From assembly GCA_051294375.1 (NCBI GenBank), contig JBJCIZ010000136.1, positions 1-7,285 of the forward strand: DNA of 7,285 nt, given 5' to 3'. A model generated the notes under the pieces. That model did not search any database. It saw only the letters and a program-made list of their open reading frames with translations, and was not told where the DNA came from. A program made the position numbers and the translations under genes. Origin of the DNA: Paraspadella gotoi. Taxonomy: Eukaryota > Animalia > Chaetognatha. Each line of letters starts with the position of its first letter. The first letter of the stretch is position 1. Shown piece after piece: positions 201 to 7,248 of this stretch.

Positions 201-253
201 TGATAAGTTAATACCAATTGGGGGTTAATTTTACTTCCTCTGACCGCGGTAAG
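201..253 (+). repeat. Dispersed repeat, TIR-like motif copy 1
   Basis: TGATAAGTTAATACCAATTGGGGGTTAATTTTACTTCCTCTGACCGCGGTAAG aligns with 664-715; the core 222-253 matches 684-715 at 27/32. Confidence 0.7.
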
Positions 254-909: not shown

Positions 910-1271
910 AAAATCTTTACTATACTATATTTAATATATAAGTATATCATTAATTGGAGAACTACTGGACTTTTTTATGTATAAGTTTTATTTCGAGTTT
1001 AATTCATTTACTATTTTATGTTTAATTTGGGTAACTTTACTATTCGACGTACAAAACCAACTTTAGCTACCACCGGTCGGTNNNNNNNNNNTCCATTTAA
1101 TTTTGTTTTCCCTCTCGTGTAGAGTCTCAGTTTGCGAAATAATAATATACATTTTTTGGTTCAGTAATATAAATTTTATAATAAATAAATTTTTAAAATT
1201 TATTTTAATTGCCATTTTATGTTTGAAGTAGAAAATGAATTGTTTATGNNNNNNNNNNATAAAGAAACAAA

Positions 1272-1315
1272 TTTCGGATATATTTCAGCCTCTATGTAAG
1301 CTTTCATCAGCGCAA
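1272..1315 (-). ncRNA. Minimal type I hammerhead ribozyme-like motif (copy A)
   Basis: Minus strand reads TTGCG CTGATGA A AGCTT ACATAG AGGCT GAAA TATATC CGAAA. It has the core CUGAUGA (1310-1304), a 5-bp helix II AGCTT/AGGCT with one G-U, GAAA, a self-complementary ATATAT helix III, an AUC cleavage triplet (C at 1277) and a short helix I (CG/CG). Confidence 0.75.
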
Positions 1316-1413
1316 AAACAGATTTGTAAAACAAATAATTTTACAGACTTTTTTCTTTCTTTCTTCAAACTTCAAAATTTGTGAAAGTATTTGTTTCACA
1401 AATNNNNNNNNNN

Positions 1414-1458
1414 TTGCGCTGATGAAAGTTTACATTGAAGCCGAAACACGTCCAAAAT
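1414..1458 (+). ncRNA. Minimal type I hammerhead ribozyme-like motif (copy B)
   Basis: TTGCG CTGATGA(1419-1425) A AGTTT ACATTG AAGCC GAAA(1443-1446) CAC GTC(1450-1452) CAAAA. Core boxes are intact, helix II has one mismatch, the helix III hexamer ACACGT is near-palindromic, and AATAAA follows at 1470-1475. Confidence 0.8.
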
Positions 1459-1531
1459 TTATGTTTCTTAATAAAACTTATTGTACGTAAACAAACAAGG
1501 AAAAGAAAAGGAAAAACAATATTTTTTAAAC

Positions 1532-1594
1532 GGTTAGCAATTGGGTTAAGGCTGGTTATGGATTAGGGGTGGTTAAGGTTAAGGGTGGTTATGG
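1532..1594 (+). repeat. Degenerate GGTTA / TTAGG(G)-like tract
   Basis: Repeated GGTTA(A/G/T) units: GGTTAG..GGGTTAAGGCTGGTTATGGATTAGGGGTGGTTAAGGTTAAGGGTGGTTATGG. Confidence 0.55.
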
Positions 1595-1703
1595 ATTTAT
1601 AATAAAAAGTTTTTCTACCCTTACCAGTATCCTTTTATTTTTGAGTAGCGAGATTTCTATATGTCGCTCATANNNNNNNNNNNNNNNNNNNNNNNCGCAA
1701 AAT

Positions 1704-1730
1704 CCCGGTCGGCGAATGTAAAAATAAGCC
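1704..1730 (-). repeat. Dispersed repeat, TIR-like motif copy 3
   Basis: Revcomp GGCTTATTTTTACATTCGCCGACCGGG matches 684-710 at 22/27. Confidence 0.55.
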
Positions 1731-1891
1731 TTTAATTTTTTATATAACAATAAAATTGGCGAAAAAAGATTATTTTAAGTGTATTCGTGATTGCATTAAA
1801 ATATATCATAATCAATGGCGTATCTGAATTATAGTAATGTTTAACCAAAAGTTTTTATTAGTTTTTACAACGATTTGTAATTGACTTTGGT

Positions 1892-1934
1892 AACGGACAT
1901 GTTTCGACTAACGGGCTCGGTTATCAACAGCGTT
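1892..1934 (-). ncRNA. Degenerate hammerhead ribozyme-like motif (copy C)
   Basis: Minus strand reads AACG CTGTTGA TAACCGAGCCCGTTAGTC GAAA CATGTC CGTT. Helix I (AACG/CGTT) is a perfect 4 bp, helix III is the palindrome ACATGT and the site is GUC. The core has A6->U (CUGUUGA) and helix II is imperfect. ATCGTTGTAA and AATAAA follow, as in the other copies. Confidence 0.65.
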
Positions 1935-2339
1935 TTTTATAATGTTTATAAATTTTTGAGTAAATCTTTTTCTTAATACAATTCGTCCAATTAGAAAAAA
2001 ATGCTGTCCTGGGCATATTCTTGACCGTCTTGAATAATTATTTTTTAACATAAGGATTCCCAGTTAATGCTTCATTTAATGGTGAATATTGGATGACCAT
2101 TAAAGAAAGGTTGTTTTACAATAGTAAATATATAATCAACTTTATGAAATTCAAATATAATAAACGTCCAGTACTTTGCTATAGAAGGAGAAAAAATTTT
2201 AAAAATTTTCATCCAATGAGAAATGGNNNNNNNNNNTTTGGTGTCACTCGCGAATGGACACGGTATTATGAATTGGGCATAACCAATACAAGAATTATCC
2301 ATTCATTTAGTAAATAAAATGGTAAAATTTACCATTAAT

Positions 2340-2374
2340 CCCCTAACCCTGGTGGGCGAAAGTAAAATTAGCCC
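2340..2374 (-). repeat. Dispersed repeat, TIR-like motif copy 4
   Basis: Revcomp GGGCTAATTTTACTTTCGCCCACCAGGGTTAGGGG is 30/35 identical to 684-718. Confidence 0.75.
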
Positions 2375-3434
2375 AAAAAATATCTGACTTTGTATCTTCC
2401 CTACTATGAGAACTCGAAAAACTAAAAATCTTGGTCTGTTTTTTCCTTCACTTACCAGTAAACAACACATCGAAGATTTTTTTAATCAGCAGTGCAGATA
2501 TGGTAACAAACTGAGTTTGACAAACAGTTTAGAAGAATTATTGATTAGACAATTTAATAAAATGCAATACTGACAGAGTCAATAACTCAGTTTCATCAAA
2601 ATTTAAAGGGAGGTCCAACTCTTTACAGAAACGGTAAAACAGAATAAAAATAAAAACAGAATGCCAGATTGTCGTTGTGGGTAAACGAAGGTGGCGAAGG
2701 AGATGGGAGCGTCGGCCTCTTGGTAGATATTTGAATCGATCGTCGACGTGACCTCGATGGAATGGGTTTGGATGCCGGAAAAGTCAAAGTATTTTATCCC
2801 GTGGTATTTTCTAAAATTATTAAATAAATTGGTATCAATTTTTATTCTTAATAATTCAATTTTCTCTAACTTAACATGTTTAACAATCCAAAGCAAGCTG
2901 GCAGACCAACGACCAAAACGCCGGAGCCCCCGCGCCGTAGTTGTACTGGTTCTGATGATTGTTGCTCTCTGGAGGATTTGTTGTAGTCCACGTTGGCGAG
3001 GTCAAGGAGGAAATTCTTCAGCATCATTTGACAAAGTTTGATGTCGAGATTTGGATTCCAAAAGGTGAGTGAAGGGACGACGCCGGAGTAAACAGCGTCG
3101 CGAAGAGGGATGGAGAATTGATTCACCTTTGTTAGGGGGGAGAAGAGCAAATTAATTTATGAAATAATGTAGTGAGACGGAAACTATTCATGCCATTTGA
3201 AAAAGCTAATTTCAAGGATATTCTTTGGAGAAAAACAATTACATTTGTATTTGTTTTTATCAACGAATTGTATTAGACATTAGGACATTTTCTCCAAATT
3301 TTAAAACAACGAAACTGAAAGTCTACACACGAGGATATTCTTTTAATTCGACGTATTTGATAATTTGATCCAGTTTTAAGATTTTTGAGAAAAAATCAGG
3401 ACACGAATAAAAATAAAAACTATTGAAGAGACAG

Positions 3435-3584
3435 TAATTATTATTATGTGTTAATGACANNNNNNNNNNATATAAGCAGTCCCTGAGCTTTGGATCAGGC
3501 TGTAACCAGGCTAGAACCTGGCCACCAGGCTAGAACCCCGGACCTTTGGTTTGAGAGGCGAATGACTTGCCTCCGGCACCAATG
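3435..3584 (-). mobile_element. tRNA-derived SINE-like element / tRNA pseudogene head
   Basis: Minus strand 3584-3521 reads CATTGGTGCCGGAGGCAAGTCATTCGCCTCTCAAACCAAAGGTCCGGGGTTCTAGCCTGGTGGC. It has an A-box-like TGGTGCCGGAGG and a B-box-like GGTTCTAGCC at tRNA spacing, plus a tRNA-like AAAGGTCC..GGTTC segment. The anticodon stem is broken. A short (ATA)n run near 3447-3437 may be a tail. Confidence 0.55.
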
Positions 3585-4094
3585 NNNNNNNNNNAACGGT
3601 TGGTGGATTTTAGTCCACCATACTATAAAAATTATTTTTATAATTTTAAGTTGCTGTCAAAAATTAATCACGGTGAAAATGTATCAAAATTTATTAATTT
3701 AAAAAATCAGAACTTACAAATTCATACTGTAGTGTACTCACCATTCAAAAGTCCAGCAGCGTCGCGTAACGGATCAGAAGGGAGAGCAAGGACTGTCTCT
3801 TGGGTAAGGAGAGGTAAAAATTTTGGAACAAGTCTTGGTGGCGTAGCTGCTGATCGAATCCAACGGAGCGGACAAGAAATTCATTTCCAATTCGGGAGTG
3901 AGTAAACTTTGGAGGAAGAGACGCCGAGTGCATGTACAGTTGTACACATTACCTTGAAGGGTTGTAACAAATCCATTTTAATTGATTATTTTATATTACA
4001 TTATGCTTATTTATTGAATGCATAAATAATTTTTATATTGTTTAACCAATTTTTTGACATCCTTAAATTCAGTCCAATTTTTATAACCTTTATT

Positions 4095-4319
4095 TTAGCA
4101 AAGTTTTTCGAATTTTTTACAACGNNNNNNNNNNTGAAAAAGCAGACATGTTTCGGCTCACAAATGTCAAGAGCTGATGAAGGCTCGAAATNNNNNNNNN
4201 NAACATGTCTGCTTTTTCAAAAATAAAATCATTGTAAAAAATTCAAAAAACTTTGCTAATCTCTTACAACNNNNNNNNNNCTAATCTCTTACAACAACGA
4301 AAGAAAGGATTATACCATG
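4095..4319 (+). mobile_element. Short hammerhead-bearing retro-insertion with inverted 5' arm and 13-bp target-site duplication
   Basis: 4095-4160 is the reverse complement of ~4202-4259 plus the gap. The perfect direct repeat TATAACCTTTATT at 4082-4094 and 4320-4332 abuts the start of the inverted arm. AATAAA lies at 4222-4227. Confidence 0.8.
4171..4215 (+). ncRNA. Minimal type I hammerhead ribozyme-like motif (copy D, interrupted by an assembly gap)
   Basis: GAG CTGATGA(4174-4180) A GGCTC GAAAT [N10] AACATGTC(4202-4209). The inverted arm at 4135-4160 reads TGAGCCGAAACATGTCTGC on the minus strand, which supplies the missing GAGCC-GAAA and gives a perfect GGCTC/GAGCC helix II. Helix I pairing is poor. 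Confidence 0.75.
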
Positions 4320-6119
4320 TATAACCTTTATTATATTACGTCTATTTTTCCTTTAAACATGAAATGAAGAATTTGAACCTCTGGTTAAATTTATATTTTT
4401 CAACCCATTTTAAAACAATAACATAAAATTGGAACTGATTTTAATTTATAATATTTAGCATATTTTTGCTATTTAATACGGAAATAAGGTGAATAAAACA
4501 GAAATAGGCCTGAGGCACCTCCCCGGCGAACGAAGACGATATATAGCGGAAGGATTTAGGAGAATGTCCGTCCAGTGGGCGGAGATGTTATGGATCCTGG
4601 CGATGGAGGGCACGAAAGTGGCCAAGAGGCGTTTGTAGATGCCCGGTAGTGGTGCCAGCTTCTTGACACGATCGATTCTCTCTTTGTGAATGTAGATGCT
4701 AAAAAATATGTTTAATGTGCAAGAGATTGAAAAGCTACTAAACTACTTAAATCCTCTCTATTATTTTATTGCCAATAAAATGGCTTTTGTTACTTTACAT
4801 CGCATTACTTCTCAATCAGATGACTTTAGTTCTGTGTGGTCACGGGACTACGCAAGTATAAAACCTAAGCATAAGAAGCAAAGCAACAGAGAACAAACAA
4901 ATATAAATTACAGAGTAGCTGCGCAAAACATTGTCAACAAACTAAAAAAAAGCCCAGTTAATTATATTTTATTTACTATTATCATTATACAGGGGTGGGA
5001 CCATATATCAAAACAAAATTTAAAAAATCATTACTCTAAAACTCTTAATGAATTTTAAAATCAGAATAAATATTTGTATAATACTCTCACTAAGCTTTTA
5101 GACGATATATTAATCTTTTTGAAGTTTTTTGATATAATGCTTTTTTTNNNNNNNNNNAGGCAACTGCTCGGTTTTCTGAATATCTAAATAAGCGTCAACC
5201 ATTTATTGTTGCAGAGAAGAGTCAAGTAACAACAATATCTATGTACTATAGTTGAGCAACTCAAGGTAACAGGATTGCTTTCTTGCCATTTATAAAATTT
5301 ACTTAACATCTTCAGTCAAAAAGAAATTCACCTCGGTCTGAAAGCAGGCGAGTAGCAGTAATCAATGCGGGCGGCGGCGGCCAGCGCCGAGGGTGGGACG
5401 AGCGCCGGCTTTGCGACAGCGGCGAAGCGTGAGACGATTCTCCAGTCCGCTCTTTGATCACAACGCGCCAAGCGTCAGATTCCTTCACCCTTCATATTCA
5501 CATATTTTTTTATACGTAATGATCAAAATACTAGATTCAAATAATCGATACACTATTAGAAAATTAACCTGAAGATCCAAAGTAGCAACGCCGTGCAAAT
5601 TAAACATGGCAGACTTATTCTCTGCAATGAAAATCCGCAAGGCGAAGAGCGCCGAGGCCTGAAGGTTGAGTCTCGGCGTCGACATGGCGCCAAATGGACT
5701 CGGTAGGTGACGGTATCAGGGTTGGCATTAAAAAACCCACCCGTCGTTTTGCAGAATGTCTTGCACCTCGATCCCGTGGTTTGCCTCCGTGACGCCGTCC
5801 TTTGTCATCTTCGTCGCCACTCGGGNNNNNNNNNNTGACGGAGCGATCGTCGAGACTGCGATCGTTGCTGGAACGTGAACGACGCGTGTGGCGCTTGTGG
5901 TACTGATCACGATTTGGACAGTCATGGATATTATTAATACGCTCAGGAGGCTTATGAAAAAAAGGAATAGAAAGAAAATGAAATTTTTTCTTTTTTACAT
6001 TAAATTATATTAAAAACGTTAATAAGCTTCATGGGCAAAAAAATTCTTGTCAATTCTTTTTAATTCTTTAAAAAAAATATTAGTATTTATATATTTTTTT
6101 ATTGTATTTGATAGATATT

Positions 6120-6371
6120 TATAAAGTAATAATTTTTATTTGTGATAATTCGAACATGTTTCGGTTCTTTTTTTTTTCTTGAGAGAGAGCAAAAGAGAAA
6201 GAAAGGGGCAATTTTAACTTTAATATATATCTCTTTTTCAAAGTTAATATCAAATATTTTTTTAAAATTGTCAAAACCTTGCGCTGATGAAGGTTTGAAA
6301 AAAAAAACCGAAACATATCCGAATTATTAAATGATCATTGTAATCACAAATTTATACTTTGTTACTTTATA
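6120..6371 (+). mobile_element. Hammerhead-bearing element with partial inverted arm
   Basis: The revcomp of 6120-6175 (AAAAGAACCGAAACATGTTCGAATTATCACAAAT...TTACTTTATA) matches 6298-6371 (AAAAACCGAAACATATCCGAATTAT[17 nt]CACAAAT...TTACTTTATA). The layout is the same as at 4095-4319. Confidence 0.68.
6279..6324 (+). ncRNA. Minimal type I hammerhead ribozyme-like motif (copy E)
   Basis: TTGCG CTGATGA(6284-6290) A GGTTT G(A)n AAACC GAAA(6310-6313) CATATC CGAA. Helix II GGTTT/AAACC is perfect, the site is AUC (C6319) and helix I is CG/CG. The helix III hexamer ACATAT has one mismatch, while the inverted arm retains ACATGT. Confidence 0.78.
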
Positions 6372-6455
6372 CTTTATTATATTTTTTTATGAATTTATTA
6401 ATATTAAAATATTATTTTTTTTAATTTTAAATTATTATATACTTAGGCTGAAATT

Positions 6456-6513
6456 TTAACTTAATCCTAACTTACCCTAACCTTACCTTAACCCTAACCT
6501 AACTTACCCCTAA
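6456..6513 (-). repeat. Degenerate (C)CCTAA telomere-like tract
   Basis: TTAACTTAATCCTAACTTACCCTAACCTTACCTTAACCCTAACCTAACTTACCCCTAA consists of 5-6-nt CCTAA/CCCTAA/CTTAA variants. Confidence 0.65.
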
Positions 6514-7248
6514 TTTATTTTTAACTTACTTTTTTAACTTACACATATTCTTAATTTATTTTAACCATAATTTATTATAAACAAAATTTTCACTTAAATA
6601 TTAATATAAGAAAAATAACAAATATTAAAAAAATATGTGATTCCCTTTAATTTCCCCCCCCCACCCCAAAAAAAAAATTATCTTCTTCCGTTCCGTTCCT
6701 CTTATTTTTCCGTTAATTCTTTAAGAAAAAAAAAAAAAATCTCATAGACCTCGAGTGTATTAATCTCCAGAAATGCCATTTATAAATATTAAAGTACTCG
6801 CATTACGAAGCCTGTTAACTGGGCAAATAGTTAAAGGTTCTCGCAAACTCCATCGACTATTATTAACTTATTTGTTACTCCTGGTCAAAACGCCGCAGTT
6901 TTACGAAAAATCCATTTAAAAAAAAAATAACATTAAATGTATTTTTAACAATTTTTTTTTTCTGGAAGNNNNNNNNNNAACGACAATGTTACTCATTCGA
7001 AAGAATTAGATGTCAAGCAATTGTATAATCAACGTTGAAACAAAATATAAAAAATAAAATGAAAGCTAAGAGCTTTCTTGTTAAATGGAAGCGAGCAGAG
7101 AATTTGTAATTTTCAATAAAATAATAAAATCAATTTTTCATTATAATTTTCTTAAAAAGAAAAAAAAATCGGGCGGGAACAATGTTTATAAACATGCGAG
7201 CTAACAAATCCTCTGCTTCGTGAACCGCAGCTGGCTCGATGAAGCGCC

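What the first reader, a model, noticed from the sequence alone, without database searches (positions are those of the whole stretch)
1272..6324. Family of minimal hammerhead ribozyme motifs: five cores at four loci in ~5 kb, with helix II covariation
Seen: five copies share CTG(A/T)TGA + one extra nucleotide + helix II + GAAA + a (near-)palindromic hexamer + H. Helix II differs between copies but keeps pairing (AGCTT/AGGCT, GGTTT/AAACC, and GGCTC/GAGCC reconstructed from the inverted arm), which is the pattern expected of a structured RNA rather than a chance match. Established: minimal type I hammerheads with a tiny palindromic helix III are typical of Penelope-like element pseudo-LTRs and are proposed to cleave as dimers. 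Inference: several related subfamilies of hammerhead-bearing retroelements inserted here independently, and the ORF track misses them entirely.
Basis: partly seen in the sequence, partly recalled or inferred. Interest (0 to 1): 0.85.

Follow-up and report, generated by a model that had tools for sequence, protein, structure and literature searches.

The report
Fold-back Penelope ends carrying hammerheads
The self-cutting-RNA (hammerhead) motifs are real and sit in short, mostly mirror-image insertions that are likely the truncated, inactive ends of Penelope-like jumping genes, an ordinary and already described pattern in animal genomes.

Summary
Real but ordinary. Five hammerhead-like cores lie at the stated cut-site coordinates. 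Three match a full descriptor (at most 1 in any of 1000 shuffles), one is partly unreadable (N), and one has a broken core. Helix II covaries between families. Loci 3 and 4 have 13-bp target-site duplications and one-sided extensions. The locus-1 motif is a dispersed family (43-219 contigs per run), and the window copies differ from the family majority in ways that mostly weaken them. This is the published insertion pattern of Penelope-like elements. No RT or GIY-YIG sequence was found, so parentage is inferred. Cleavage is untested, and the long hairpins would likely block it. A separate animal-like contig (L001) holds four such fold-backs in 8 kb. The scan noted this before (155 notes, at least 35 genomes). 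One residual lead: 4 of 7 partner arms break inside helix II and none at the cut site.

The parts
1219..1239 (-). Locus 1: likely one-sided 3' extension ('tail') of the left arm
   Evidence: A contig joint skips 1219-1522 in runs X3, X5 and X8. Loose ends of family contigs behind 1478/1494/1498 resemble this stretch. The right arm lacks it.
1240..1351 (-). Locus 1 left arm, inverted copy holding the hammerhead core 1310-1277 (H17 = 1277)
   Evidence: (I1, I7); arms 73 of 87 readable aligned bases identical
1374..1494 (+). Locus 1 right arm holding the hammerhead core 1419-1452 (H17 = 1452)
   Evidence: family depth falls at about 1478 and 1494-1498
1848..1930 (-). Locus 2: solo decayed hammerhead 1930-1896 (core position 6 changed) plus a 3' stretch related to locus 3; repeated DNA continues upstream to about 2200
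   Evidence: (I9, 29 nt 83%); summed contig depth above single-copy level over 1795-2208 in X3
4082..4094 (.). Locus 3: left copy of the 13-bp target-site duplication
   Evidence: null test
4095..4159 (-). Locus 3 left arm: inverted copy truncated in helix II/loop II, 3' half-core only (H17 = 4145)
   Evidence: (I3); arms 46 of 48 identical
4160..4259 (+). Locus 3 right arm with hammerhead 4172-4209; the 3' strand of helix II reads N
4260..4332 (+). Locus 3: one-sided 60-nt extension (4260-4319) and right copy of the 13-bp duplication (4320-4332)
6090..6119 (.). Locus 4: left copy of the 13-bp duplication (6090-6102) and a 17-nt one-sided extension (6103-6119)
6120..6174 (-). Locus 4 left arm: inverted copy truncated in loop II, 3' half-core only (H17 = 6153)
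   Evidence: (I4); arms 48 of 55 identical
6175..6390 (+). Locus 4 right arm with hammerhead 6284-6319 (arm homology 6298-6371), then the right copy of the duplication (6378-6390)

Best explanation
The motifs are minimal type I hammerhead sequences inside short, mostly head-to-head mirror-image insertions that are likely the 5'-truncated pseudo-LTR ends of several Penelope-like retrotransposon families, and these copies are likely inactive. Shown here: the cores, the inverted arms, 13-bp duplications at two loci, one-sided extensions, and a dispersed multi-copy family. Inferred mechanism: an autonomous PLE elsewhere in the genome supplies the RT/GIY-YIG protein. It nicks both strands of an AT-rich target about 13 nt apart, each nick primes reverse transcription from one of two neighbouring start sites just downstream of the hammerhead (giving a tail on one arm only), and both cDNAs stop early and are joined head to head. 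The template was likely uncut, since every arm runs through the cut site. Hammerhead structure was likely kept by selection in the parent elements, which explains covariation between families, while the inserted copies decay neutrally. If transcribed, the fold-backs are predicted to form long hairpins that would bury the core.
For: Descriptor against shuffles. Covariation 9 of 13 pairs, helix II 5 of 5. Inverted arms at 3 of 4 loci. 13-nt direct repeats flank loci 3 and 4; of 617 left/right flank pairs across the window, the 5 with a repeat of 12 nt or more all lie at these two loci. Locus-1 family: 219, 43 and 59 contigs laid in X3, X6 and X8, and 0 in X10 (organism B). The majority of family depth restores the ACATGT palindrome (1449: 96-100%; 1279/1282: 85% and 95% in X3), G10.1 (1427: 87-97%) and a second stem I pair (1454: 47-93%). 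L001, a separate contig, has four fold-backs in 8 kb, one with a 9-bp duplication and a 33-nt one-sided extension; five of its motifs were found at E<0.005 by a model not trained on them. Fold-back hairpins of -60 to -86 kcal/mol against -3 to -6 for the lone motifs. Literature: inverted 5'-truncated copy plus 30-40-bp tail (PMC8557442, passages); head-to-head inverted pLTRs, 8-10-bp TSDs, tail on one arm (PMC3846280, passages); dual minimal hammerheads 100-700 bp apart on opposite strands (PMC4209133, parts 1-2 of 4); a purified PLE protein cuts and extends both strands, starts at two internal sites that bound the tail, and does not need ribozyme cleavage (PMC11167929, parts 1-2 of 4).
Against: No RT or GIY-YIG sequence was detected in or next to any locus (Pfam; protein search), and no genome was held to look for the parent. 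No duplication was found at locus 1 (best 8 nt, AT-rich), locus 2 (best 7 nt) or the main L001 fold-back. The extensions here are 17, about 21 and 60 nt, against 30-40 in print. Within the locus-1 family the core is not visibly more conserved than the tail: variants of 2-9% occur at 1444, 1447, 1450 and 1453, many tail positions show none, and positions 1414-1443 gave no rows, even 1427 which varied. At least one contig carries the locus-1 right arm together with downstream DNA to 1641 (X3 record 3), so some copies may have spread as part of a larger repeat.
Confidence: 0.85

Rival explanations
1. A self-propagating non-autonomous fold-back mini-element (MITE-like or PLE-mobilised): the whole hairpin is the transposing unit.
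For: Compact inverted arms with flanking duplications. One X3 contig and one X5 contig carry the locus-1 right arm with the same downstream flank (records 3 and 11).
Against: Arms are unequal and asymmetric, with a tail on one side only. Three different junction types and three sequence families occur in one window. Family contigs end at variable points, about 1478 and 1494-1498.
Confidence: 0.08
2. Dispersed monomers of non-LTR retrozymes, which cleave to unit-length RNAs, circularise and are retroposed.
For: Same class of type I hammerhead; retrozymes are argued to derive from PLE pseudo-LTRs (bioRxiv 10.64898/2026.07.22.740005, part 1 of 5).
Against: No head-to-tail array of hammerhead-bearing units (longest period 23 nt). 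Copies are inverted, not tandem. No arm starts at the cut site.
Confidence: 0.04
3. Host-adopted ribozymes that regulate the surrounding gene by cutting its pre-mRNA.
For: The loci lie among exon-like stretches of an INTS3-like sequence on the minus strand, and some cores are on that strand.
Against: The window copies carry changes away from the family majority, hairpins would hide them, and the INTS3-like sequence looks broken: an in-frame stop 7 codons after the matched stretch and a 14-codon gap in the next weak match.
Confidence: 0.02
4. Chance motif matches in AT-rich DNA.
For: No Rfam hit; monomer folding is no better than shuffles.
Against: 3 full hits against at most 1 in 1000 shuffles. 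Of 80 counted core matches in viral contigs, 9 had helix II of 4 or more pairs; none of the 88 viral loci had an inverted arm (best score 24 against 98 for L001).
Confidence: 0.01

Closest known systems
Inverted pseudo-LTR insertions of endonuclease-bearing Penelope-like elements (Adineta vaga Pen2a/Pen2, PMC3846280; general scheme PMC8557442)
   Same: Head-to-head inverted 5'-truncated copy, extension on one arm only, target-site duplication, hammerhead in the pseudo-LTR, near-palindromic junction (locus 1).
   Different: Whole inserts are only about 0.23-0.3 kb with no ORF; duplications are 13 bp (8-10 in the rotifer examples read); extensions are 17-60 nt; the parent element was not found.
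Minimal hammerheads of metazoan PLEs (Cervera and de la Pena 2014, PMC4209133)
   Same: Core boxes, extra nucleotide between 9 and 10.1, G10.1-C11.1 in the family majority, small palindromic helix III, several families per genome, pairs on opposite strands 100-700 bp apart.
   Different: Helix II is 5 bp (7-8 in Schistosoma minimal motifs). They belong to the variant with a short palindromic helix III rather than the strictly minimal form. The window copies are decayed.
Anolis Poseidon element PAc (PMC11167929)
   Same: Provides the likely mechanism: both strands cut and extended, two internal RT start sites bounding the tail, uncut RNA as the main template, AT-rich targets.
   Different: PAc is a full-length active element tested in vitro; nothing was tested biochemically here and clade membership is unknown.
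Animal non-LTR retrozymes (bioRxiv 10.64898/2026.07.22.740005)
   Same: Non-coding, type I hammerhead, linked to PLE pseudo-LTRs.
   Different: Retrozymes are defined by tandem units; these loci are inverted pairs or a solo copy.

Membership tests
PLE-type minimal type I hammerhead (PMC4209133) | Core boxes CUGANGA, GAAA and UH | tested here: met
   Intact in 1419+, 1310- and 6284+; readable parts intact in 4172+; position 6 changed in 1930-
PLE-type minimal type I hammerhead (PMC4209133) | [quoted passage not shown] | tested here: met
   Present in 5 of 5 window copies and in L001
PLE-type minimal type I hammerhead (PMC4209133) | G10.1-C11.1 pair and a paired helix II | tested here: met
   G-C in 6284+ and L001; A-U in 1310-; A.C in 1419+, where the family majority at 1427 is G (87-97%); helix II 88% of cells paired
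PLE-type minimal type I hammerhead (PMC4209133) | Palindromic helix III/loop 3 | tested here: met
   Perfect in 5 of 7 window hexamers, one change in 2; family majority restores it
PLE-type minimal type I hammerhead (PMC4209133) | Self-cleavage as a dimer or with protein help | not testable with these tools
   Only contigs were available, and no listed holder is on record as RNA
Endonuclease-bearing Penelope-like element | ORF with telomerase-like RT and GIY-YIG endonuclease | tested here: inconclusive
   None detected in the window; expected for truncated copies; no genome to search
Endonuclease-bearing Penelope-like element | Inverted 5'-truncated copy in head-to-head arrangement | tested here: met
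   3 of 4 loci
Endonuclease-bearing Penelope-like element | Target-site duplication | tested here: met
   13 bp at 2 of 4 loci, with null test; none found at loci 1 and 2
Endonuclease-bearing Penelope-like element | Optional 30-40-bp tail on one arm | tested here: inconclusive
   One-sided extensions of about 21, 60 and 17 nt; only that of locus 1 is supported as family sequence
Endonuclease-bearing Penelope-like element | Dispersed multi-copy family | tested here: met
Non-LTR retrozyme | Tandem head-to-tail units, each with a hammerhead | tested here: not met
   No such array in the window; the rest of the genome could not be examined

The most novel reading that the evidence does not exclude
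The hammerhead of these elements works mainly as a structural signal rather than a cutter: helix II stops reverse transcriptase or marks the point where the two cDNAs are joined, and the palindromic helix III may pair two template RNAs for paired priming at both nicks. Of 7 partner arms (3 in the window, 4 in L001), 4 break inside helix II or its loop, 3 are full length to a near-palindromic junction, and none starts at the cut site.
Probability: 0.2. Interest if true: 0.5.

Novelty: new member of a known kind. Interest (0 to 1): 0.2.

Why it matters
As an instance it matters little: PLE hammerheads and inverted, tailed insertions are in print, and the scan has noted them in at least 35 genomes. 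It does show that Rfam misses this whole class, and that four such insertions fit in 7 kb, so PLE ends may be a large unannotated fraction of this animal's genome. What the hammerhead does in the PLE cycle is still open (PMC8557442 calls it unclear). Genome-wide breakpoint maps of such mini-insertions are a cheap way to test it, and the loop-II breakpoints seen here are a small lead.

Tried and rejected
Rfam scan at E<=10: no hammerhead family. No whole genome is held, so no genome-wide BLAST or upstream walk to an RT ORF was possible. No RNA holder listed; run X8, guessed as RNA, has contigs spanning exon and intron and behaves as DNA, so expression and cleavage are untested. DNA upstream of locus 2 (about 2050-2225, minus strand) resembles, from my recall only, the C-terminal end of a PLE GIY-YIG domain across frames, but Pfam and one protein search found nothing: unsupported. 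A loose core pattern in viral contigs gave 88 stretches that behave as chance; a fold-back pattern gave 0. No tRNA gene by ARAGORN. The INTS3 exon search at 4509-4694 found nothing, and the frame upstream of the matched INTS3 stretch did not match, so a frameshift near 3880 rests on recalled similarity only. The ESM Atlas gave no result. Summed contig depth at locus 1 (about 45,000-60,000 against about 300 for single-copy contigs in X3) suggests some 100 copies or more, but the tool states that it is no copy number. PMC8969392 (passages) added only the general 5'-truncation description. Paper searches were seen as listings; I did not search specifically for helix II breakpoints, so I do not claim that point is absent from print. 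Supplements were not read; those of PMC4209133 hold further motif alignments that may include closer relatives.
Full report
Setting. The window is 34% GC eukaryotic DNA with GC-rich exon-like stretches and AT-rich spacers. One stretch on the minus strand matches Integrator subunit INTS3 (Pfam Ints3_N, E 3.9e-06; human residues 315-353). An in-frame stop follows 7 codons later, a weak match at 3126-3010 has a 14-codon gap, and a diverged second copy of 2660-2903 exists in run X5, so this is likely a broken gene copy. No genome is held. Nine public runs of one coded organism hold part of the window, none on record as RNA. Much of the window is repeated DNA.

The observation. The five cores and all five cut-site coordinates are as stated. 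A full descriptor finds three (1419+, 1310-, 6284+); 1000 global and 1000 block-wise dinucleotide shuffles never gave more than one. The 4172+ copy cannot be fully read because part of it is N. The 1930- copy has a changed core position 6 and a poor helix II. Two further 3'-half cores lie at 4145- and 6153- (H17 positions). Rfam finds none of them, and the lone motifs fold no better than shuffles, as expected for motifs with almost no helix III. On an alignment of the five window copies plus one from L001, 81% of cells pair against 67% in shuffles, 9 of 13 pairs change on both sides, and all 5 helix II pairs do; slid registers are much worse. This test leans towards the structure, because the structure came from these sequences, two rows are arms of one insertion, and L001 was selected by a pattern fixing part of helix II.

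Architecture. Three of the four loci are head-to-head inverted repeats with 3' ends pointing outwards. Locus 1 (about 1219-1494) has two complete arms, 73 of 87 readable bases identical, around a 22-nt loop. Locus 3 (4095-4319) and locus 4 (6103-6377) pair a complete arm with one that starts in helix II or its loop (46 of 48 and 48 of 55 identical). Loci 3 and 4 are each flanked by a 13-nt direct repeat (4082-4094/4320-4332 and 6090-6102/6378-6390). Of 617 flank pairs sampled along the window, the only 5 with a shared word of 12 nt or more are at these two loci. Between arm and duplication, each has an extension on one side only (60 and 17 nt). At locus 1, a contig joint skipping 1219-1522 occurs in 3 of 4 runs, and loose ends of family contigs resemble 1219-1239, so the left arm carries about 21 nt of family sequence that the right arm lacks. 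No duplication was found at loci 1 and 2. Locus 2 is a solo copy whose 3' stretch is related to locus 3 (I9).

Family. On 1414-1505, 219, 43 and 59 contigs were laid in three runs of the organism and none in a run of organism B. The majority of depth differs from the window copy at 1449 (96-100%) and 1454 (47-93%), and at 1427 (87-97%), 1279 and 1282 (85% and 95% in X3). These majority letters give a perfect ACATGT palindrome, a G10.1-C11.1 pair and a second stem I pair. The window copies are therefore decayed members, mostly by transitions. The ATATAT palindrome of 1310- is a private double change, not a family trait. Against strong claims: within the family the core is not more conserved than the tail (variants of 2-9% at 1444, 1447, 1450 and 1453; none at 1445, 1446, 1448, 1451, 1452 or many tail positions), and the first 30 positions gave no rows. 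Covariation is a between-family signal. One X3 contig carries the right arm with downstream DNA to 1641, so part of the spread may be inside a larger repeat.

Elsewhere. One metagenome contig matched the motif (L001). It is AT-rich DNA with a microsatellite and, by my reading, eukaryotic repeats. A covariance model built from the six copies found five more motifs in it at E<0.005, and alignment shows four fold-backs in 8 kb, one with a 9-bp duplication and a 33-nt one-sided extension. The 88 viral-contig matches behave as chance and have no inverted arm. So neither the density nor the layout is special to this window.

Mechanism. Shown: cores, arms, duplications, extensions, dispersed family. 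From papers: PLE insertions often carry an inverted 5'-truncated copy and a 30-40-bp tail (PMC8557442, passages); rotifer PLEs show head-to-head inverted pseudo-LTRs, 8-10-bp duplications and a tail on one arm (PMC3846280, passages); minimal hammerheads occur as opposite-strand pairs 100-700 bp apart and cleave weakly, only as multimers (PMC4209133, parts 1-2 of 4); a purified PLE protein cuts and extends both strands, starts at two internal sites bounding the tail, assists the ribozyme, and does not need cleavage for insertion (PMC11167929, parts 1-2 of 4). Inferred: two nicks about 13 nt apart each primed a short cDNA from the pseudo-LTR, and the two were joined head to head. Every arm crosses the cut site, so the templates were likely uncut. 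If transcribed, the loci are predicted to fold into hairpins of -60 to -86 kcal/mol, far below the -3 to -6 of the lone motifs, which would bury the catalytic core. PMC3846280 proposes self-priming on an antisense template for such junctions; my data do not separate that from paired priming.

Limits. No RT or GIY-YIG sequence was found, so membership of the PLE class rests on architecture and motif. Nothing on expression or cleavage could be tested.

Novelty. This is a new member of a known kind. The scan holds 155 notes with the same words in at least 35 genomes, and several reach the same reading; they are unchecked AI notes, not support. The one lead is that 4 of 7 partner arms break in helix II or its loop and none at the cut site. 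Interest 0.2.

Noticed in passing
window about 2640-5940, minus strand: INTS3-like sequence that looks broken (in-frame stop after the matched stretch at 3745-3880, 14-codon gap in the next weak match, possible frameshift near 3880); the stretch is identical in contigs of four runs, and a diverged second copy is seen in X5.
   Followed up: partly
window 3424-3620, minus strand: Extremely high-copy short repeat (summed depth over a thousand times the single-copy level in all four runs) with what looks by eye like tRNA-type A and B boxes; a likely SINE or mini-LTR. ARAGORN finds no tRNA.
   Followed up: partly
window 2209-2346 and 4003-4124: Further high-copy repeats; 2280-2317 and 4007-4044 are related in inverted orientation.
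   Followed up: no
window 201-253, 664-722, 2335-2374: Three related copies of a short repeat end, 83-85% alike, the third inverted; possibly termini of a non-autonomous DNA element.
   Followed up: no
window 1542-1597 and 6457-6517: TAACC-like microsatellite arrays on opposite strands, each within about 50-70 nt of a fold-back locus; the first belongs to a repeat in which locus 1 appears to be inserted.
   Followed up: no
window about 2905-2990, minus strand: 28-residue stretch resembling one kelch-type repeat (match to designed SAKe proteins, E 8.3e-06 summed over repeats, each weak), in frame after the INTS3-like piece.
   Followed up: no
window about 2050-2225, minus strand: Across frames, resembles from recall the end of a PLE GIY-YIG domain just upstream of locus 2; no tool supported it.
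   Followed up: yes
L001 1293-1654, 3190-3568, 3916-4259, 6623-6904: Four hammerhead-bearing fold-backs of four different sequences in 8 kb of a separate contig.
   Followed up: yes
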